Of a stretch of 32,000 nt of DNA, positions 11,667-18,532 are shown in pieces. A program made the translations under genes and the position numbers. The DNA is from Fastidiosibacter lacustris. Lineage in GTDB: Bacteria > Pseudomonadota > Gammaproteobacteria > Francisellales > Francisellaceae. The stretch spans positions 41,748 to 73,747 of the forward strand of contig NZ_QLIR01000010.1 in NCBI RefSeq assembly GCF_003428155.1. Reading direction: 5' to 3'. How positions within the stretch are numbered: position 1 is the first letter of the stretch; every line of letters begins with the position of its first letter. The notes beneath the pieces were generated by a model, which ran no database searches, was not told the origin of the DNA, and saw nothing but the letters and a program-made list of their open reading frames with translations.

Positions 11667-12452
11667 ATGAAAGAAGACAATGTTATTTTATTAGTTAGTA
11701 CAAATCAAGATGATATAATAGCGCTAGAAAATTTACTTCAACGTTATTTGTTCCAAACAATAGCATGCTCATCGGGCGCTAATGCCCTAGAAATCTTGAG
11801 CACTCACAAAAATATTAAACTTGTTATATTGGACGTCTTATTACCAGATATGTATGGTATCGAAGTTTGCAAAAACATTCGTGAACGCAATCCTAATATG
11901 GCTATTATTTTTGTTTCAAAAATAACAGATGCTACAGAAGTTGTTTTATGCTTTGAAGCAGGAGCTGATGACTATATTGAAACTCCTTATAATCAGCATA
12001 TACTTATGGCACGCATTAAATCAAAACTCCGTGACCGCAATACACATCATACACCTTATGCAATCACTGGTTCTGTCAAAATTGATGAGCTTAACATTAA
12101 TGATTATATGCAAATTCAATTTGGTAAATGGGCTTACTATCCGCGTAAATCTTTGGTAACCCATCCAGATCAAGATGAAATTTACTTAACTGATAAAGAA
12201 GGTGCTCTGCTTAAGTTATTACTTTCTGATCCAAGCAAAACTTTTATGCGCGAAGAAATTGCCAAATATTTGAACCTTAACATAAAAGAAAGCATGATAC
12301 GTGATGTTAATATCCACGTTCATCGTTTACGTAATAAACTGACTCAAGGACACAACTCAAGCTCACCGATTAAGGCTGTGCGTTCTCAAGGTTATACACT
12401 TGATTCTTATTTAACTTATATCTATGACGGCAAAGAGGTTTCCTGCTTATAA
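11667..12452 (+). CDS. Atypical OmpR/PhoB-class response regulator (degenerate receiver + winged-helix DNA-binding domain); orphan
   Basis: 261 aa. REC-like N-terminus with the phospho-acceptor context KLVILDVLLPDMYG and FVSK. The conserved Lys is replaced (GADDYIETPY versus consensus DDYLTKPF) and the acidic pair is displaced (LLVSTNQDD). The C-terminal wHTH is LTDKEGALLKLLL....FMREEI....DVNIHVHRLRNKL....KAVRSQGYTL. GAGAGAG lies upstream of the ATG. Confidence 0.8.
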   Translation: MKEDNVILLVSTNQDDIIALENLLQRYLFQTIACSSGANALEILSTHKNIKLVILDVLLPDMYGIEVCKNIRERNPNMAIIFVSKITDATEVVLCFEAGADDYIETPYNQHILMARIKSKLRDRNTHHTPYAITGSVKIDELNINDYMQIQFGKWAYYPRKSLVTHPDQDEIYLTDKEGALLKLLLSDPSKTFMREEIAKYLNLNIKESMIRDVNIHVHRLRNKLTQGHNSSSPIKAVRSQGYTLDSYLTYIYDGKEVSCL

Positions 12453-12514
12453 TCTTTGGTTTTTTTAATGAGGGAGCTCTGTCTTCGTGTACAGAGTAGC
12501 TTAACATATGACTG

Positions 12515-12523
12515 TGTTATAAT
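12515..12523 (+). promoter_or_regulatory. Perfect extended -10 element (TGTTATAAT) in a convergent intergenic region
   Basis: TG-T-TATAAT read directly at 12515-12523. No good -35 and no annotated downstream gene. Chance occurrence in AT-rich DNA is plausible. Confidence 0.2.
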
Positions 12524-12802
12524 TTATAGTTGTAACGTATTTGTCACATATTTTATAAAATGTACAAACTATCAAATCAGAAATGAACTTGCTGTGGAAA
12601 TTGGTTATTGTAAAAAAAGTCATTTAAACAATAACGTATCTGCCGCCCTGTCCAATCCTTTACTCGCACTCAGACACGTTTTTAAGTACGCCCCTATTCA
12701 ATTAAAAGCACTTGAATTTTAACGTATAGACAACCTGTTTTTATTGAGCAAGAAAACTAGAGAACGAGATAAAATAAGACTAATCCCATCGTGGTGATTC
12801 TC

Positions 12803-14986
12803 TTAAAACCCACTTTCTTTGACCCATAAAATAAGGATTTGTTGCCATAAACTTGCAGCTAAAGACTTTCTTGCAATATTAATAAAGACTTTACCTCGAA
12901 TGACGTGGGACAAATTATATTGAGGTGAAGCCGTTGGCTTTAATAATAAAAGGAAAATGCTTTCCTGAGGAGTCAGTTTTCCTTCATTGTCAGGCTTTAC
13001 TGCAATGCTACCACCAAAGATTGAAGCGTGATATGTGCTAAGAGGAACTGCTTTATGAATATAGCTAAGGTTAGCCTTATTTTGATTTTGTGACAGTAAT
13101 AGACTTGCATGGGAGCTTATGATTTGCGTAATAATCACAGGAGTTTTAGTAAAATCGATGTTTTCAGGTACGAAATATCCGCTTTGATTATTGGTGAGTT
13201 TATCGTATTTTTTGGTATCGATATAAGCATGAAGTTGAATTTGATCTTTATTGACAAGCATCATTAGTGCTTGTTTGGCTTTTAGCCATGCTCCAATTTG
13301 TAAATCTTCAGATAATGACTCTACAACCCCATCGAATGGTGCATAAAAGTACAATTTTTCCTGTTCTTTTTGTAATTGATTAAGCTCTGTTTGAGTTTGA
13401 CTGATTTGAGTCATAAGAACTTGTTGTTGTTCAAGCTGAGTTTGAAAATGGACGATATTACGTTGTTGCCACTTAAGTTGTATAAGCTTTTGTTTAGTTT
13501 GTACAATTTTAAAATTTAACTTATCAGATTCTAGAACTGCTAAAAGCTCACCTTTCTTGATTGTTTGTCCTTTTTTAACGTATATATTGACGACTTTTGC
13601 ACCTATCTCAGTGTAGAGGGTTTGTGTTTGATATGACATGGTAGCAGGTAAGGAAATTTGGCTTTGCCAAGGGGTGAAAAAAATCAATATGAGTAACAAT
13701 AGGATAGAAGTTAAAATAATAGTATGCTTATTAAGTTTAATTCTGCTTTTAATGGTCCACCAAACCTTTAATTCACGATAAATAGGATGTAAGATAAAAT
13801 AAATGATTTCAATTGCAAAAAGGATAATCCCTAGTGCTTTAAAAAATAGGTGATAAACCATTAAAGCAATACCAAAAAATAGAAAAAAACGATAAATCCA
13901 ATTTAGAATTGCATAAGTGATGAGGATGTGTTGCCTAGAGATATTAAAATATTCTGGCATCGGTGCATTTAGTCCAAAGAGTATTTCTCTGATTTTCCAT
14001 CTTGTTAGAGCAAAACTTCTGGTTTGAAGGTTTCGCATACTCAAAATATCAGATAGAACATGATAGCCATCAAACCTTAAAAAAGGACTGATATTGATCA
14101 AATAGGTTGTCATTAAGCTATATGTTGCAAGAAAGAAACAGATACTTTTAAGTGCGCCTTCTGGAAATAGAAGCCATGCCCACAAAGCAAAAATAGCTAT
14201 ATAAGTTTCTGTAATAACGCCAGCTAGTGCAATCGTAATACGTTCTTTCGGGTCGTTGACTTTCCAGCTTTCCCCTGTGTCAGTGTAAAGCATAGGGAAC
14301 ATAACAAGAAAGGCAACTCCCATTACAGGCACGTTAAGAGCAAATTTTTTACACATTAAAGCATGACCTAGTTCATGGCAGCTTTTGGCAAAAATTAACG
14401 CAATGGCATAAAGTAAAATATATTCAATTGAAAATAAAGCAAAAAAAGTATTGGTAAACTGATCCCATTCGCGCAAAGTAAAGATAAGTGCAAATATTCC
14501 AAGAAATGTCATGATAAAAGCAAACGTTTTACCAAGCATAAAGCGAAAATAAGGATAGATTCTATCTAAAAACTTATTAGGTTTAACAAGTGGAACTCGA
14601 AAGAATAAATAATTTTTAACAAGCCATAAAAACCAGTTACTCTTTTTAAGAGATTGAATTTTATTGATACTTTTTAATATGGGGTAGTTTTGCTCAATTA
14701 GGCAGTTTTGTGATAAAAACTTAAGCATTTGACTTAAATCTTCTTCAGAAATTTGTGCTAAGGATTTACTTTTTATATCTTTAATAAACTCAGCAGGTGG
14801 GACGCTTTGCCAATAGTGTAAAATTTCATGTTCTTTCCAACCTAAATGAAAAAAGCGATTATTTAATGTGTCTTGAACAATCCAAGTTGGGCTGTTATTA
14901 AAATCCATACCTCCTTTCTCTAAGGTAACTCCTAAGCGAAGGGGTGGAAGTATTTCTGGTAGTTCTGTCATATTTTGCATTTGCAT
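12803..14986 (-). CDS. Fusion protein: PqqD/RRE-like N-terminal domain + site-2 protease (peptidase M50) membrane core + C-terminal HlyD-type membrane-fusion (periplasmic adaptor) domain
   Basis: Residue numbers follow the 732-aa track ORF. HELGH is at residues 209-213 (nt 14363-14377, verified as CAT GAA CTA GGT CAT). The second S2P motif NISPFLRFDG is at 303-312. About 8-9 TM helices. After the last TM comes a lipoyl-like/coiled-coil adaptor pattern (EIGAKVVNIYVKKGQTIKKGELLAVLES...coiled coil...YFYAPFDGVV). The track start at 15001 is TTG; I prefer the ATG at 14986, which lies 4 nt after the upstream stop and behind GGGTGG. Confidence 0.85.
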   Translation of the reverse strand: MQMQNMTELPEILPPLRLGVTLEKGGMDFNNSPTWIVQDTLNNRFFHLGWKEHEILHYWQSVPPAEFIKDIKSKSLAQISEEDLSQMLKFLSQNCLIEQNYPILKSINKIQSLKKSNWFLWLVKNYLFFRVPLVKPNKFLDRIYPYFRFMLGKTFAFIMTFLGIFALIFTLREWDQFTNTFFALFSIEYILLYAIALIFAKSCHELGHALMCKKFALNVPVMGVAFLVMFPMLYTDTGESWKVNDPKERITIALAGVITETYIAIFALWAWLLFPEGALKSICFFLATYSLMTTYLINISPFLRFDGYHVLSDILSMRNLQTRSFALTRWKIREILFGLNAPMPEYFNISRQHILITYAILNWIYRFFLFFGIALMVYHLFFKALGIILFAIEIIYFILHPIYRELKVWWTIKSRIKLNKHTIILTSILLLLILIFFTPWQSQISLPATMSYQTQTLYTEIGAKVVNIYVKKGQTIKKGELLAVLESDKLNFKIVQTKQKLIQLKWQQRNIVHFQTQLEQQQVLMTQISQTQTELNQLQKEQEKLYFYAPFDGVVESLSEDLQIGAWLKAKQALMMLVNKDQIQLHAYIDTKKYDKLTNNQSGYFVPENIDFTKTPVIITQIISSHASLLLSQNQNKANLSYIHKAVPLSTYHASIFGGSIAVKPDNEGKLTPQESIFLLLLKPTASPQYNLSHVIRGKVFINIARKSLAASLWQQILILWVKESGF

Positions 14987-14990
14987 AGTG

Positions 14991-16331
14991 TTACCACCCA
15001 AAGAATTGTCTTAGCGTTGTGATCGGTTTTCTAAATAAGTAATAGAATAAACTTACATTTTCCCCCATCAACTTGGCGGTTCCTTGACTACCAATTTTAG
15101 GAAGTGATTGATTGGAATCAAGGTAAGCAATGACTTGATAAGCAAGCACTTGAGAAGGTGTAATAGTAGCTTCGAAACTTGAATATTCAATTATGCCATA
15201 AACAGGGTTAAGTGGATCAGCATTTAAAAATAGCTTAACTTTATCACCCTTTTGAAAGTTAATTGCATCAGATACAGGTAACCAAATTTCGATTTCGATT
15301 TGATTAGGAATAGCAACTTGCATAACGTTTTCACCCGTGACAACTGGTTTACCAATCCATTGATTGGGAGTGTCAATAATAGCGATACCATCTATTGTGC
15401 TTCTTACATAAGATTCTTCAATCAAATGACGCGTATAATTAACCTCTAATGCTTTTTCTTGCATTTGAGCTTGTAAAACTTGAATTTCAGCACGTTTTTC
15501 TATGTCCTGGTAACTACTTTGAACAGCTGTTTTGTATTTTGCTGTTGCAGTGGCAAGTTCTTTTTGAGCAAGCTCATTAGCATTGACTAAATCACGCTTA
15601 TCCATATCAAACAAAATTTCGCCTCTACGCACATATTGCTCAGGCATGACAGCAATATTTTCAATTACGCCTTCCATTGGTACAGTAATAATTGCAGGAT
15701 CCTTGGCAATAATAGAAGCAGGTGCTAAAACGCTTTGTGGTACACGAATGAACATAGCACTCAGAATGATAACAATGAACAACCAAACAAGGCGTCTTCG
15801 TTTGCTTTTGAAGTAATATTTAATTCTGCCCAACAAGCCATTTGGTTTGCTTAAGTGTGACCATGCTTGATTGTATGAAAGAGAAATCCAATCGAATTGT
15901 TTTAGTTCATTTTCATTTAACATATCTGGGTTTAATAGAATGACCCCACCAATAATATCTTTATTAAGGTTGCGAAAGAAATAGATATGAGCATACTTTG
16001 CAAGTGGTTCAAGCCATCTTGTTGCAACAGCTTCTGCTACATCATCAATATTTAGAATCAGTAGATCTTTACTTTGATCATAATGGGTAATAATTTTGCT
16101 AATAAATTGATTAGCTGAAATTTGATAAGGACTGGTACCGTTGAGTTGGGTGATACCTGAGACACTCAAAATTTTTATGTTTTTATTTTGCCAAGAACTC
16201 CACACAATAGCACGTTGATATTCAGCAACAAGTTTGGTTTGGTGCGCGATAAAAAAAGCAAGTTCATTTAAAGTGTGGATTTCACGCATTTCTTGTTGTA
16301 AAGAGAGTAAATTAGCTAATACATCTTTCAT
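14991..16331 (-). CDS. HlyD-family membrane-fusion protein with an N-terminal cytoplasmic GAF-like domain
   Basis: 446 aa. About 165 N-terminal soluble residues end in a GAF-like tail (IIGGVILLNPDMLNENELKQFDWISLSYNQAWSHL). One TM (LVWLFIVIILSAMFI). Then an adaptor pattern (VPMEGVIENIAVMPEQYVRRGEILFDMD..coiled coil..VRSTIDGIAI). The ATG lies 2 nt after the upstream stop, with GAGGG as SD. Confidence 0.8.
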   Translation of the reverse strand: MKDVLANLLSLQQEMREIHTLNELAFFIAHQTKLVAEYQRAIVWSSWQNKNIKILSVSGITQLNGTSPYQISANQFISKIITHYDQSKDLLILNIDDVAEAVATRWLEPLAKYAHIYFFRNLNKDIIGGVILLNPDMLNENELKQFDWISLSYNQAWSHLSKPNGLLGRIKYYFKSKRRRLVWLFIVIILSAMFIRVPQSVLAPASIIAKDPAIITVPMEGVIENIAVMPEQYVRRGEILFDMDKRDLVNANELAQKELATATAKYKTAVQSSYQDIEKRAEIQVLQAQMQEKALEVNYTRHLIEESYVRSTIDGIAIIDTPNQWIGKPVVTGENVMQVAIPNQIEIEIWLPVSDAINFQKGDKVKLFLNADPLNPVYGIIEYSSFEATITPSQVLAYQVIAYLDSNQSLPKIGSQGTAKLMGENVSLFYYLFRKPITTLRQFFGW

Positions 16332-16333
16332 TT

Positions 16334-17131
16334 TTAACCCTCTTTTCTATCAGTCACTTTATTTATTTTAAAATGAGCAATTCCACTCATACCTGAGAAA
16401 AGCATATCCGTGTTGAGAGTGGATGATTCATCATTTTTAACAAGTTTGCCATAAACTAAAATTGATTGGCTTGCTGGATCTATTTGACTAACAATTTTAA
16501 TAACTTGACCAGTAAGTTTTATATTAGGTAGCTCCTCTAACATTAAACTAAAGTTCGTCCCAATATGAATTTTGCTTAACCATGAAGACGGTATGTACAT
16601 TTTGACTTCAAGCTCTCGATTATCAACGATTTCAAGCAATGGATCATCTGTTTTAACCATTTCATTTTCTTGAGCGGATTGATGAACGACTTCACCGTTA
16701 TAAGGTGCAATAATTTGGCATTGACGTTGCTGGAATAAAATGATATCGAGGTCGGCTTTAGCAATCTCAGACTGACTTTTTGCTTTTGCCAAATCCATTT
16801 TACTGGCTGAGTTTAGACGCATAAGTTCAGTTGTACTTTGTAATAAAGCATCAGCCGCCTCAAGCTCAGCGCGAGCACGTAGCATTTTGAGGTCAATTTC
16901 TTCACAATCAAATTGTAAAAGTACCTCTCCTTTTTTAAAGACATCTCCTGGTCGAAAATAAATTTTTTGAATAGTCCCTGTCATTGGACTAGAAAGAGAA
17001 GCTTTGTTAATTGGGAAAACAGAGGCATATGTGCTTTGTTCGCCGGCATCGGTAAGTTGTTGAAAAGGGGTTATGCCATAAGAAAAACTAAGCAACATAA
17101 ACAAGGAGATAAATAAACTGCATGATTTCAT
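16334..17131 (-). CDS. Exported HlyD-type membrane-fusion / biotin-lipoyl-like adaptor protein
   Basis: 265 aa. N-terminal signal or anchor MKSCSLFISLFMLLSFSYG. SPMTGTIQKIYFRPGDVFKKGEVLLQFD, then a coiled-coil hairpin, then IIAPYNGEVV, the canonical MFP order. Good SD (AGGAAG) 8 nt upstream. Confidence 0.8.
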   Translation of the reverse strand: MKSCSLFISLFMLLSFSYGITPFQQLTDAGEQSTYASVFPINKASLSSPMTGTIQKIYFRPGDVFKKGEVLLQFDCEEIDLKMLRARAELEAADALLQSTTELMRLNSASKMDLAKAKSQSEIAKADLDIILFQQRQCQIIAPYNGEVVHQSAQENEMVKTDDPLLEIVDNRELEVKMYIPSSWLSKIHIGTNFSLMLEELPNIKLTGQVIKIVSQIDPASQSILVYGKLVKNDESSTLNTDMLFSGMSGIAHFKINKVTDRKEG

Positions 17132-17175
17132 AATCGTGACTTCCTTTTATTTGAGGCAGTTTTAATATGATTATT

Positions 17176-17204
17176 AGTTTAGATCAGCGTTTTTATTTGT
17201 ACAA
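17176..17204 (-). promoter_or_regulatory. Candidate sigma70 promoter for the three-gene adaptor/protease operon
   Basis: The minus strand reads TTGTAC-17 nt-TAAACT about 45 nt upstream of the 17131 start. The -35 sits inside a palindrome, TTGTACAA. Sequence match only. Confidence 0.2.
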
Positions 17205-17342
17205 TAGAAAATAACTTTTTGTTATGTAAGTATTTAGCGATAATCATACATATAGGCGCATATTTAATACGTTTTTCTCTTAAGATGGAGTATGCTAGTA
17301 TGAGTTCTAACAAATGTCGATAATGCAAAATAAGGATAAATA

Positions 17343-17786
17343 ATGCAAGTTAAAGGTTTCAGTTTAGCAACACGTGTCATTCATATGATTGGCTTTGAAA
17401 TATTTGCTATTGTTATTTTCGCACCTTTAGCTGCTTTTATATTAGATAAGGGAATAATAGAAATAGGTGCTTTAGGCATATTCACTTCGCTTATTGCTAT
17501 GTTTTGGAACTTTATTTATAACTGGGTGTTTGACGTTTGGGAAGTGCGACTTGGCAAGGATAGGTTTAACCGTAGCGTGATAACAAGATGTATACATGTA
17601 TTATTGTTTGAATTAGGTCTTTTTATTGTCACCATTCCACTTGTTGCATTTTGGTTAGATATGACACTTTTGCAAGCGTTTTTAATTGATATTGCTTTTG
17701 TGGCTTTCTTTTTAATCTATGCTTTTGTTTATAACTGGATATTCGATCTTCTATACTTAAAACTTGTACGCAAAGTAAGCATTTAA
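17343..17786 (+). CDS. PACE-family (AceI-like, tandem bacterial transmembrane pair) efflux transporter
   Basis: 147 aa, 4 TM in two repeats. RVIHMIGFEIFAIVIF with the TM1 Glu, FWNFIYNWVFD, RCIHVLLFELGLFIV and FVYNWIFD closely parallel the AceI repeat motifs. SD AAGGA upstream. Confidence 0.8.
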   Translation: MQVKGFSLATRVIHMIGFEIFAIVIFAPLAAFILDKGIIEIGALGIFTSLIAMFWNFIYNWVFDVWEVRLGKDRFNRSVITRCIHVLLFELGLFIVTIPLVAFWLDMTLLQAFLIDIAFVAFFLIYAFVYNWIFDLLYLKLVRKVSI

Positions 17787-17863: not shown

Positions 17864-18532
17864 ATGATGCGAATTTTAGTTGTAGAAGACGATATTATGT
17901 TAGGTGAAGGAATAGTTGAAGGCTTAAAGCAGCATAACTACGCTGTAGATTTGATGCAAGATGGGAAAATGGCAGAAATGGCATTAGATACTGAACCGTA
18001 TGATGCAGTTGTTATGGATATTGGCTTACCTTTTAAAGATGGCATTTCGATTGTAAAAAGCATACGTGCTAAGGGAAACTCAGTTCCAGTTTTACTATTA
18101 ACCGCGCGTGATGCAATCGATGATCGTGTGCGTGGATTAGATTCAGGCGCTGATGATTATTTAACAAAACCCTTTGATTTATCAGAGCTTTTAGCAAGAA
18201 TGCGTGCATTGGTACGTCGTTCAGCTGGACGGAGCGATCCTAAAATTAAGTTTGAAGAGTTAGAGCTTGATCCTGCAGCACAAACTGTAACAGTAAGCGG
18301 TGAGTTTGTAAAACTTTCAAGAAGAGAATTTGCGTTACTTGAATGCTTGTTAGAAAATACAGGAAAGGTGGTTTCTAAAACGAAGTTGCTTGAAAAATTA
18401 TATGGTTGGGATGAAGAAGTAGATTCTAATACCCTAGAAGTACATATTCATAATGTACGTAAGAAAATTCAGAATAAATATATAAAAACGTTACGAGGCG
18501 TTGGTTATATTGTACAAAAACCAACAGCATAA
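17864..18532 (+). CDS. Canonical OmpR-family response regulator (QseB/PmrA/BasR-like); no adjacent histidine kinase
   Basis: 222 aa. All receiver signatures are present (VVEDD, AVVMDIGLP, LLLTAR, ADDYLTKPF), with a wHTH (LSRREFALLECLL...LEVHIHNVRKKI...TLRGVGYIV). The start could be the second ATG at 17867. Confidence 0.9.
   Translation: MMRILVVEDDIMLGEGIVEGLKQHNYAVDLMQDGKMAEMALDTEPYDAVVMDIGLPFKDGISIVKSIRAKGNSVPVLLLTARDAIDDRVRGLDSGADDYLTKPFDLSELLARMRALVRRSAGRSDPKIKFEELELDPAAQTVTVSGEFVKLSRREFALLECLLENTGKVVSKTKLLEKLYGWDEEVDSNTLEVHIHNVRKKIQNKYIKTLRGVGYIVQKPTA

What the first reader, a model, noticed from the sequence alone, without database searches (positions are those of the whole stretch)
14690..14953. 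PqqD/RRE-like peptide-recognition domain at the cytoplasmic N-terminus of the M50 protease fusion
Residues about 17-104 of the 732-aa ORF read ILPPLRLGVTLEKGGMDFNNSPTWIVQDTLNNRFFHLGWKEHEILHYWQSVPPAEFIKDIKSKSLAQISEEDLSQMLKFLSQNCLIEQ. This follows the PqqD / RiPP-recognition-element pattern. It starts with a short beta segment (P.lr.gv.l). It continues with a turn into '..ln..a.eil..l.g...aeei...l......seeD...fl..L...gLi', comparable to Klebsiella PqqD ...KLNETAAAILELVDG....II..L......DDDVVEFLQ.... RRE domains bind leader peptides of ribosomally synthesised peptides. One fused directly to an intramembrane protease and a periplasmic adaptor would make a self-contained recognise-cleave-deliver device. 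That would be functionally analogous to peptidase-containing ABC exporters, but with an S2P in place of the C39 peptidase and no ATPase.
Basis: inference. Interest (0 to 1): 0.7.

Follow-up and report, generated by a model that had tools for sequence, protein, structure and literature searches.

The report
Leader-binding domain on a membrane protease
The first ~100 residues of this 732-residue membrane protease/adaptor fusion very probably form a divergent PqqD-type peptide-recognition (RRE) domain; this architecture is known from daptide antibiotic biosynthesis, but here it sits in a widespread, unstudied operon that in most related bacteria lies next to a giant surface-protein gene.

Summary
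Residues 17-104 of the minus-strand ORF 12803..15001 read exactly as quoted and form a conserved N-terminal domain.

- AlphaFold2 gives a confident three-strand, three-helix fold.
- The seven best PDB matches are all RiPP recognition elements (TbiB1, CteB, TfuB1).
- Direct searches against PqqD fail. Homology is reached through a sister subfamily with the same PqqD-M50-HlyD layout, whose N-domain passes Pfam's PqqD threshold (hhalign ours vs sister E 4e-7; sister vs PqqD E 3e-6).

An RRE fused to a site-2 protease is already published (daptide MpaP), so this is a new variant, not a new kind.

The context is new:
- The usual operon is TolC-like, short HlyD, ~450-aa HlyD and RRE-M50-HlyD.
- 28 of 32 loci with full flanks have an adjacent gene of 900 aa or more.
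- Where the N-terminus of that gene is visible it usually carries a LE(P/S)RxxFDGA leader (LEPR-XLL type) followed by DUF4347.

I propose that the RRE docks that leader for M50 cleavage and export. This window lacks both the giant gene and the TolC gene, so its substrate is unknown. Binding, cleavage and the energy source are untested.

The parts
14690..14953 (-). RRE-like (divergent PqqD-superfamily) domain, residues 17-104 of the 732-aa ORF. Elements in 732-aa numbering with window coordinates: LPPLR motif; b1 res 25-32 (14906-14929); b2 38-44 (14870-14890); b3 49-53 (14843-14857); a1 55-62 (14816-14839); a2 69-79 (14765-14797); a3 86-98 (14708-14746).
   Evidence: AF2 secondary structure and pLDDT. 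Foldseek top hits are all RREs. hhalign chain through the sister PqqD domains. Conservation.
14603..14686 (-). Long linker helix (res 106-133). It leads into the conserved NYLFFRVPLVKPNKFL segment that joins the RRE to the membrane domain.
   Evidence: AF2 helix 101-128 in M6 numbering, pLDDT about 64-67. The motif is conserved in A2 (Y126, L127, F128, P132, P136 invariant). It is also present in the sister proteins and in MpaP.
13667..14602 (-). M50 / site-2-protease membrane domain. HELGH lies at 14363-14377 and NISPFLRFDG at 14066-14095. It has seven predicted TM segments plus a re-entrant loop.
   Evidence: Pfam PF02163 31 bits against cutoff 27.2. NF041824 daptide_HExxH E 7.6e-39 over res 36-400. 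H204, E205, H208, N298, D306 and G307 are invariant in 48 homologues. Hydropathy.
12806..13666 (-). C-terminal periplasmic HlyD-type adaptor part (biotin-lipoyl/barrel-sandwich plus coiled coil), res 446-732.
   Evidence: Pfam HlyD_D23 37 bits (cutoff 30), HlyD_3 34.3 bits (cutoff 22.2), Biotin_lipoyl 26.2 bits (cutoff 22.1).
14991..16331 (-). Upstream partner gene, 446 aa: a cytoplasmic N-domain, one TM segment and a HlyD-type periplasmic part. It overlaps the TTG start of the fusion by 11 nt.
   Evidence: Pfam HlyD_D23 and HlyD_3. Present directly upstream of the fusion in 73 of 80 species loci.
16334..17131 (-). First gene of the module, 265 aa: a short HlyD/RND-type periplasmic adaptor with an N-terminal signal or anchor.
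   Evidence: TIGR01730 112.5 bits against cutoff 94.9. Present in 65 of 80 loci.

Best explanation
Shown or strongly supported. Residues ~18-103 form a cytoplasmic, highly divergent member of the PqqD/RRE superfamily, with three strands followed by three helices. This domain is fused through a linker helix to a site-2 (M50) intramembrane zinc protease and then to a periplasmic HlyD-type adaptor.

Inferred. As in other RREs, the domain binds a short N-terminal leader of the client protein, by strand addition along b3 against helix a3. That holds the adjoining hydrophobic stretch at the cytoplasm-facing M50 active site for cleavage. The fusion would then act with the two other HlyD-type proteins of the operon and a TolC-like outer-membrane factor (adjacent in most relatives, unlinked here) to pass the client across the envelope.

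Client in relatives (inferred from adjacency). The client is most likely the neighbouring giant protein. Its N-terminus reads: basic stretch, h-h-A-L-E-(P/S)-R-x-(M/L)-F-D-G-A-A-V-A-T (the LEPR-XLL type leader), an acidic linker, then a DUF4347 domain.

This window and its closest relatives (Cysteiniphilum) have only the three inner-membrane/periplasmic genes. The client here is therefore encoded elsewhere or unknown.
For: RRE identity:
- AF2 model with pLDDT 93-96 over the core and b1-b2-b3-a1-a2-a3 order.
- Foldseek ranks 1-7 of 350,542 PDB chains are all RREs.
- hhalign A1 vs sister N-domains: Prob 92.8%, E 4e-7.
- Sister N-domains pass Pfam PqqD, match PqqD at E 3e-6 and match the MpaP N-terminus at E 1.3e-4.
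- The daptide protease MpaP is described as an RRE N-terminally fused to a site-2 protease (PMC10028931), and our ORF matches its NCBIfam model at E 7.6e-39.
- Family-wide conserved positions lie in b2/b3 (W..D, N.FF.IG) and a3 (FL..N.L). By established knowledge of RRE structures these are the canonical leader-binding elements.

Protease competence: HExxH and NxxPxxxxDG are invariant.

Topology: N-in, C-out.

System and client:
- The module is found in at least 599 species loci.
- The operon OEP / short HlyD / ~450 aa / fusion is conserved in 52, 65 and 73 of 80 loci respectively.
- 28 of 32 loci with at least 5 kb on both flanks have an adjacent ORF of 900 aa or more.
- 17 of 24 adjacent giant ORFs with a visible N-terminus carry the motif. 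All 21 hits of the leader HMM (my own model, built from these loci) are on the operon strand.
- The Fangia example passes NF012209 LEPR-XLL (18.2 bits against cutoff 17) and DUF4347 at 7.8e-52.
- The same arrangement occurs on E. coli IncF plasmids, where the giant protein starts ...FALESRQLFDGAA.
Against: - No direct sequence or profile hit of this N-domain to PqqD or any Pfam, NCBIfam or PDB entry.
- The N-domain alone does not hit the daptide model (protein 4), and A1 against a single MpaP sequence is not significant.
- Foldseek E-values are only 0.012-0.07, and the fold rests on a predicted model.
- The leader-RRE pairing is inferred from gene adjacency only. No binding or cleavage test was possible.
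- The window (32 kb) has no LEPR-type leader, no ORF above 732 aa and no candidate small-peptide precursor beside the operon. The window and about 46 kb of a ~99.8% identical contig show no giant gene and no OEP gene.
- No ATPase or other energy source is encoded in the operon, so export is speculative.
- The giant protein of the sister clade lacks the LEPR motif.
Confidence: 0.6

Rival explanations
1. The domain is an RRE, but its client is a small ribosomally made peptide (a RiPP or bacteriocin-like precursor) encoded elsewhere.
For: The only characterised RRE-S2P (MpaP) processes ~50-aa daptide precursors. Other M50 proteases (EpeP, TglG, TmoG) act on RiPPs (PMC10885120). This window has no giant gene nearby.
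Against: No plausible precursor ORF flanks the operon. No RiPP-modifying enzymes are present in the window. In 28 of 32 well-flanked relatives the conserved neighbour is a giant gene rather than short ORFs.
Confidence: 0.15
2. The N-domain has the RRE fold but acts as a gate or regulatory module, as the PDZ domains do in RseP or the CBS domain in SpoIVFB. It could also be an assembly interface for the 446-aa partner. Under this reading there is no sequence-specific leader recognition.
For: S2P proteases commonly carry accessory soluble domains that control substrate entry (established knowledge; PMC9401612 and PMC11486902 listed). Binding was not tested here.
Against: The strongest family-wide conservation lies in b2/b3 and a3, the RRE peptide groove. 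A conserved short leader motif exists on the adjacent putative clients. In MpaP the homologous domain is described as conferring RRE-dependent cleavage.
Confidence: 0.2
3. The resemblance is a generic winged-helix similarity. The domain would be unrelated to RREs, for example a DNA-binding or otherwise unrelated wHTH.
For: Direct PqqD profile comparisons fail, and Foldseek E-values are modest.
Against: No DNA-binding wHTH protein appears among the top Foldseek hits, while seven RREs do. The strand-first b3a3 order matches RREs. The transitive hhalign chain is significant and colinear over 114 columns. The domain is fused to a membrane protease, which is not a DNA-binding context.
Confidence: 0.05

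Closest known systems
MpaP, the daptide biosynthesis intramembrane metalloprotease (NCBIfam NF041824; Ren et al., PMC10028931)
   Same: An N-terminal RRE fused to an M50/site-2 protease with the same linker motif. Our ORF matches the model over res 36-400 at E 7.6e-39. The published role is RRE-dependent leader removal.
   Different: The score of 133.9 is far below the equivalog cutoff of 300. MpaP has no HlyD part, is found in Gram-positive hosts, sits in a BGC with precursor peptides, modifying enzymes and an ABC transporter, and has ~50-aa clients. The N-domains are not significantly similar by direct comparison.
PqqD (PF05402) and stand-alone lasso-peptide RREs (TbiB1 5V1V, TfuB1 6JX3); RRE domain of CteB (5WHY)
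   Same: The same predicted b3a3 fold and the best structural matches. Helix a3 aligns with PqqD's DDDVVEFLQ helix.
   Different: No Pfam PqqD hit and no significant direct profile match. Here the domain is fused to a protease and adaptor rather than being a free chaperone or part of a modifying enzyme.
PqqD-M50-HlyD proteins of alphaproteobacterial plasmids (e.g. WP_326913007.1 Rhizobium johnstonii, WP_165198722.1 Pseudohalocynthiibacter; named 'PqqD family' by PGAP)
   Same: The same three-domain layout and length (714-726 aa). The N-domains are homologous (hhalign E 4e-7). They lie next to a HlyD-type partner and a giant protein.
   Different: Their N-domain is recognisable as PqqD by Pfam. 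Their operon has a GAF-HlyD protein and a SecA paralogue instead of the short HlyD and OEP. Their giant neighbour lacks the LEPR motif.
Peptidase-containing ABC transporters (PCATs) and type I secretion systems
   Same: The logic is the same: recognise an N-terminal leader, cleave it, and pass the cargo to a HlyD/TolC conduit. Giant repetitive adhesins are typical T1SS cargo (established knowledge).
   Different: No ABC or ATPase component is present in the operon. The protease is M50 rather than C39. There are three different HlyD-type proteins. The signal is N-terminal rather than a C-terminal T1SS signal.
Other RiPP-associated M50 proteases (EpeP/YydH, TglG, TmoG)
   Same: They belong to the same protease family. 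JGI names many homologues 'putative peptide zinc metalloprotease protein'. EpeP is thought to both cleave and export (PMC10885120).
   Different: No RRE or HlyD fusion is reported for them in the text read. Their clients are small peptides.

Membership tests
PqqD family (Pfam PF05402) | Match to the PF05402 HMM at or above the gathering score (23.4 bits) | tested here: not met
   PF05402 is not among the families reported: none for the window N-domain at E<=1 and only PF09213 at E<=10, and it is absent from the 25 of 48 families listed for the 67 homologous N-domains. Sister-subfamily proteins do pass, at 28.9 and 27.3 bits.
PqqD/RRE superfamily (remote homology) | Significant profile-profile link to bona fide PqqD or RRE | tested here: inconclusive
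   Direct A1 vs PqqD: Prob 0.4%. The transitive route is significant: A1 vs A4 E 4e-7, A4 vs PqqD E 3e-6, A4 vs MpaP E 1.3e-4. The PqqD and sister profiles were thin (18 close sequences and 4 sequences).
RiPP recognition element (RRE) fold | Three-stranded antiparallel sheet followed by three helices (winged helix), structurally superposable on known RREs | tested here: met
   AF2 gives E20-27, E33-39, E44-48, H50-57, H64-74, H81-93 with core pLDDT 93-96. Foldseek ranks 1-7 are all RREs, with TM 0.62-0.66 to TbiB1 and TfuB1. This is a predicted model, not an experimental one.
RiPP recognition element (function) | Binds the leader region of a precursor peptide or protein | not testable with these tools
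   No binding assay or complex prediction was possible. The only evidence is adjacency to genes with a conserved N-terminal leader motif.
Daptide protease MpaP (NCBIfam NF041824, equivalog) | Score at or above 300 bits, and a daptide BGC context (precursors, MpaB/C/D/M) | tested here: not met
   133.9 bits against cutoff 300. The window contains no daptide genes. Compare the genuine BGC.
Peptidase M50 / site-2 protease | HExxH in a TM helix plus the NxxPxxxxDG zinc-ligand motif; Pfam PF02163 | tested here: met
   PF02163 31.0 bits against cutoff 27.2. HELGH and NISPFLRFDG are present and invariant in 48 homologues.
HlyD / membrane-fusion (periplasmic adaptor) family | Biotin-lipoyl and barrel-sandwich domains after a TM anchor | tested here: met
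   HlyD_D23 37 bits (cutoff 30), HlyD_3 34.3 bits (cutoff 22.2), Biotin_lipoyl 26.2 bits (cutoff 22.1) at res 447-610, after the last predicted TM.
Type I secretion system / PCAT | ABC transporter ATPase as the inner-membrane component (with a C39 peptidase domain in PCATs) | tested here: not met
   No ABC gene is found in the operon here or in 80 related loci.

The most novel reading that the evidence does not exclude
The RRE-M50-HlyD fusion, its two HlyD-type partners and a TolC-like protein form a previously undescribed, ABC-less pathway that processes and secretes giant surface proteins by way of an N-terminal leader. The RRE, a domain so far treated as a marker of RiPP biosynthesis, reads the LE(P/S)RxxFDGA ('LEPR-XLL') leader of multi-thousand-residue proteins that begin with a caspase-like DUF4347 domain. 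This would give the orphan LEPR-XLL signal its cognate machinery.
Probability: 0.4. Interest if true: 0.9.

Novelty: new variant of a known kind. Interest (0 to 1): 0.7.

Why it matters
For this locus, the result turns an unannotated N-terminus into a testable substrate-docking module.

More broadly, RRE domains are used as biomarkers for RiPP gene clusters. A large Gram-negative clade (at least 599 species loci, including Pectobacterium, Pseudomonas, Nitrospira, Pelagibacteraceae and E. coli IncF plasmids) in which the RRE-protease is wired to HlyD/TolC parts and sits beside giant LEPR-leader proteins would extend RRE biology from small peptides to protein secretion.

It would also suggest what the LEPR-XLL N-terminal signal is for. 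I found no paper on this in the held library.

The work also identifies tractable models for genetics: E. coli plasmids, Marinomonas and Pectobacterium.

Tried and rejected
- Direct family searches of the N-domain gave nothing relevant: Pfam, NCBIfam, and a PDB-sequence HMM built from 67 sequences.
- Direct hhalign to a PqqD alignment was not significant. That PqqD alignment was shallow because the homologue search returned only Enterobacterales PqqD at 75% identity or more.
- hhalign of our profile against a single MpaP sequence was not significant.
- I looked for precursor-peptide ORFs in the intergenic regions flanking the operon (12452-12803 and 17131-17343) and found nothing convincing.
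- I scanned the window with my own leader HMM (built from the adjacent giant genes) and found no hit.
- I searched for LEPR/DUF4347 relatives in the window's organism using the Fangia N-terminus. Only short metagenomic fragments were returned and none was attributable to this organism.
- I extended the view along a ~99.8% identical contig and found only housekeeping genes. The look-up from the other window end failed.
- Literature searches for M50-HlyD fusions, DUF4347 and LEPR-XLL returned nothing on this system.
- I considered the daptide protease as a membership and rejected it on score and context.
Full report
**Observation**

The minus-strand ORF 12803..15001 encodes 732 aa from a TTG that overlaps the upstream gene by 11 nt. 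Public annotation of a near-identical contig starts at the ATG at 14986, giving 727 aa (P0001).

The rest of the protein carries:
- Peptidase_M50 at 31 bits against a cutoff of 27.2;
- HlyD_D23, HlyD_3 and biotin-lipoyl hits at residues 447-610.

HELGH and NISPFLRFDG are invariant in 48 homologues. Hydropathy and the basic loop before the last TM segment fit a topology of N-terminus in, seven TM segments plus a re-entrant loop, and HlyD part out.

Two more HlyD-type genes precede it on the same strand: 16334..17131 (265 aa) and 14991..16331 (446 aa).

**Is the N-terminal segment a real domain?**

Yes.
- A search with residues 1-420 found 3380 relatives. The ~700-aa fusion and its N-terminal segment are conserved in all 120 that were listed.
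- An exhaustive phmmer of residues 1-135 against 1.8 billion representatives found 601 proteins at E<=1e-3. The match is almost always at the N-terminus of ~700-aa proteins.
- A 67-sequence alignment (A1) has consensus LPxLRxDLxL..G....DGxPxWxxxDPxxNxFFxIGWxxFExLxRW......FLxxNxL, with W35, D39, W59 and F90 invariant.

**Is it an RRE?**

Sequence-to-profile methods are silent. There are no Pfam or NCBIfam hits for the N-domain. No PqqD hit appears for the window N-domain, and PqqD is not among the 25 families listed for the 67 members even at E<=10. An A1 HMM finds nothing relevant among PDB sequences.

The long match to the daptide protease model NF041824 (res 36-400, E 7.6e-39) is carried by the protease part, because the N-domain alone gives no hit.

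Direct hhalign of A1 against a PqqD alignment is not significant. It aligns only helix a3 with PqqD's DDDVVEFLQ helix.

Structure prediction is clear. AlphaFold2 with A1 gives mean pLDDT 84.9, and 93-96 for the blocks covering residues 11-90. The order is b1 (20-27), b2 (33-39), b3 (44-48), a1 (50-57), a2 (64-74), a3 (81-93) in M6 numbering (counted from the ATG/Met-6 start at 14986), followed by a lower-confidence linker helix.

Foldseek against 350,542 PDB chains returns RREs or RRE-containing enzymes as ranks 1-7:
- TbiB1 with leader peptide (5v1v, 5v1u; E 0.012-0.016; target TM 0.62-0.66);
- the sactisynthase CteB (5why, 5wgg);
- TfuB1 (6jx3).

SuiB is at rank 14. Everything else in the list has low probability. 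That CteB and SuiB carry N-terminal RREs is established knowledge, not tested here.

**A bridge by homology**

tblastn of residues 6-420 against plasmids found a sister subfamily in Alphaproteobacteria. It has the same length (714-726 aa) and the same three-part layout.

In these proteins Pfam does recognise PqqD at residues 37-101. Scores are 28.9 and 27.3 bits against a cutoff of 23.4, and 19.9 bits in a third protein. PGAP names them 'PqqD family'.

The profile comparisons through this subfamily are:

| Comparison | Prob | E-value | Columns |
|---|---|---|---|
| A1 vs sister N-domains (A4) | 92.8% | 4e-7 | 114, colinear |
| A4 vs true PqqD | 88% | 3e-6 | 51 |
| A4 vs N-terminus of a Streptomyces MpaP | 54% | 1.3e-4 | 102 |
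| A1 vs MpaP | not significant | 0.1 | 83 |

The window domain is therefore best read as a strongly diverged PqqD-superfamily RRE, occupying the same position as recognisable PqqD domains in paralogous fusions.

**Prior knowledge**

[quoted passage not shown] An RRE-S2P fusion is thus a known architecture.

What is not described in the library I could search is the Gram-negative form with a C-terminal HlyD part.

**Context in relatives**

A scan of one genome per species found at least 599 loci. I examined the best 80. The closest named relatives are Cysteiniphilum at 73% identity.

The usual operon is a TolC-like OEP (~520 aa), a short HlyD (~265 aa), a ~450-aa HlyD-type protein, and the fusion. 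These partners are present in 52, 65 and 73 of 80 loci respectively.

Of 32 loci with at least 5 kb on both flanks, 28 have an adjacent ORF of 900 aa or more. It lies directly upstream of the OEP gene, directly downstream of the fusion gene, or (in a few loci) divergently upstream.

Where the N-terminus of that ORF is in view, 17 of 24 carry [LV]ExRxx[FYLM]D[GA] within the first 200 residues. A small HMM built from these finds 21 loci at E<0.2, all on the operon strand. It finds nothing elsewhere in the flanks.

The consensus leader is h-h-A-L-E-(P/S)-R-(I/M)-(M/L)-F-D-G-A-A-V-A-T, about 12-45 residues after the likely start. An acidic linker and DUF4347 follow it.

Specific examples:
- The Fangia example passes NCBIfam NF012209 'LEPR-XLL' (18.2 bits against 17) and DUF4347 at 7.8e-52.
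- E. coli IncF plasmids carry the same block behind a 4459-aa 'Ig-like' protein that starts MTTIKNRRLRPRAHRFALESRQLFDGAALAE.... The block is present in 24 of 5426 complete E. coli genomes.
- Aliarcobacter and Pseudohongiella show the same arrangement, with 2517-aa and 3578-aa neighbours.

**Mechanism proposed**

Shown:
- the fold class;
- the intact protease motifs;
- the topology prediction;
- the operon conservation;
- the adjacency to leader-bearing giant genes.

Inferred:
- the RRE binds the LEPR-type leader by strand addition at b3/a3, where the family's conserved residues lie;
- the following Ala/Val-rich stretch is presented to the cytoplasm-facing M50 site and cut;
- the three HlyD-type proteins and the OEP form the conduit.

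The energy source is unknown. The operon has no ATPase, whereas the sister clade encodes a SecA paralogue (SecA_DEAD 8.6e-91) and a GAF-HlyD protein next to an 8148-aa calcium-binding protein that lacks the LEPR motif.

**This window**

The window has the three inner-membrane/periplasmic genes only. The leader HMM finds no LEPR-type leader in it, and its largest ORF is 732 aa. No OEP homologue is found in the window. None is called on the neighbouring ~46 kb of a ~99.8% identical contig of GCA_024208055.1 either.

Its closest relatives (Cysteiniphilum, L007 and L008) share this reduced layout. The client here is therefore unlinked or unknown.

The small-peptide model cannot be excluded for this organism. 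However, no candidate precursor or modifying enzyme is nearby.

**Verdict**

- The RRE interpretation is supported, with about 0.85 confidence for fold and homology and about 0.6 for the full mechanism.
- Novelty is 'new variant of a known kind'.
- The system-level reading, an RRE-guided and ABC-less route for giant LEPR-leader proteins, is the most novel possibility left open by the evidence.

Noticed in passing
L005:12335-15973 and relatives; P0385-P0465; alignment A5: DUF4347 is the domain that follows the LEPR-type leader in the giant neighbours. It has an invariant His and a nearly invariant Cys in hhhhSHG...LLFYGC motifs. Its AF2 model (core pLDDT 92-98) matches caspases, legumain and CED-3, and best of all the T6SS effector Tce1 in 9qpe (E 3e-6). 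It is probably a clan-CD-like cysteine peptidase fold, which raises the possibility of self-processing.
   Followed up: partly
L092 (NZ_CP123586.1), L091, L088: The sister operon on Rhodobacterales plasmids consists of an 8148-aa calcium-binding protein, a GAF+HlyD protein (617 aa), a PqqD-M50-HlyD protein, and a full SecA paralogue (652 aa, SecA_DEAD 8.6e-91). This suggests a SecA-powered version of the same machinery.
   Followed up: partly
L095/L096 (E. coli MS 115-1 plasmid NZ_CP146666.1, 123597-143348): The complete block (a 4459-aa LESR-leader/DUF4347 'Ig-like' protein, TolC, two adaptors and the M50-HlyD fusion) is carried on IncF plasmids of E. coli, Citrobacter and Hafnia. It occurs in 24 of 5426 complete E. 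coli genomes, mostly on plasmids.
   Followed up: partly
P0385-P0465: Two flavours of the N-terminal leader occur among DUF4347 proteins. 'LEPRxMFDGA' is the type next to the M50-HlyD operons. The canonical 'ELEPRLLLSAD' is common in fragments named after Planctomycetes and delta-proteobacteria. Whether the second type has its own machinery was not examined.
   Followed up: no
window 11667..12452 (+) and 17864..18532 (+): Two OmpR-type response regulators (Response_reg + Trans_reg_C) flank the three-gene module, and no histidine kinase gene is adjacent. A BTP-domain membrane protein (17343..17786) lies between the module and one of them.
   Followed up: no
window 14986..15001; whole window vs L004/L097: The mechanical ORF start is a TTG at 15001 that overlaps the upstream stop. 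The annotated start is the ATG at 14986. The window is not identical to GCA_024208055.1: there are about 18 SNPs in 12.5 kb, including Pro20 here against Ser in P0001 within the LPPLR motif.
   Followed up: yes
window 14991..16331 (-), residues 1-175: The 446-aa partner has a ~175-residue cytoplasmic N-domain with no Pfam hit. The equivalent protein in the sister operon carries a GAF domain there. BLASTP links only the HlyD parts.
   Followed up: partly
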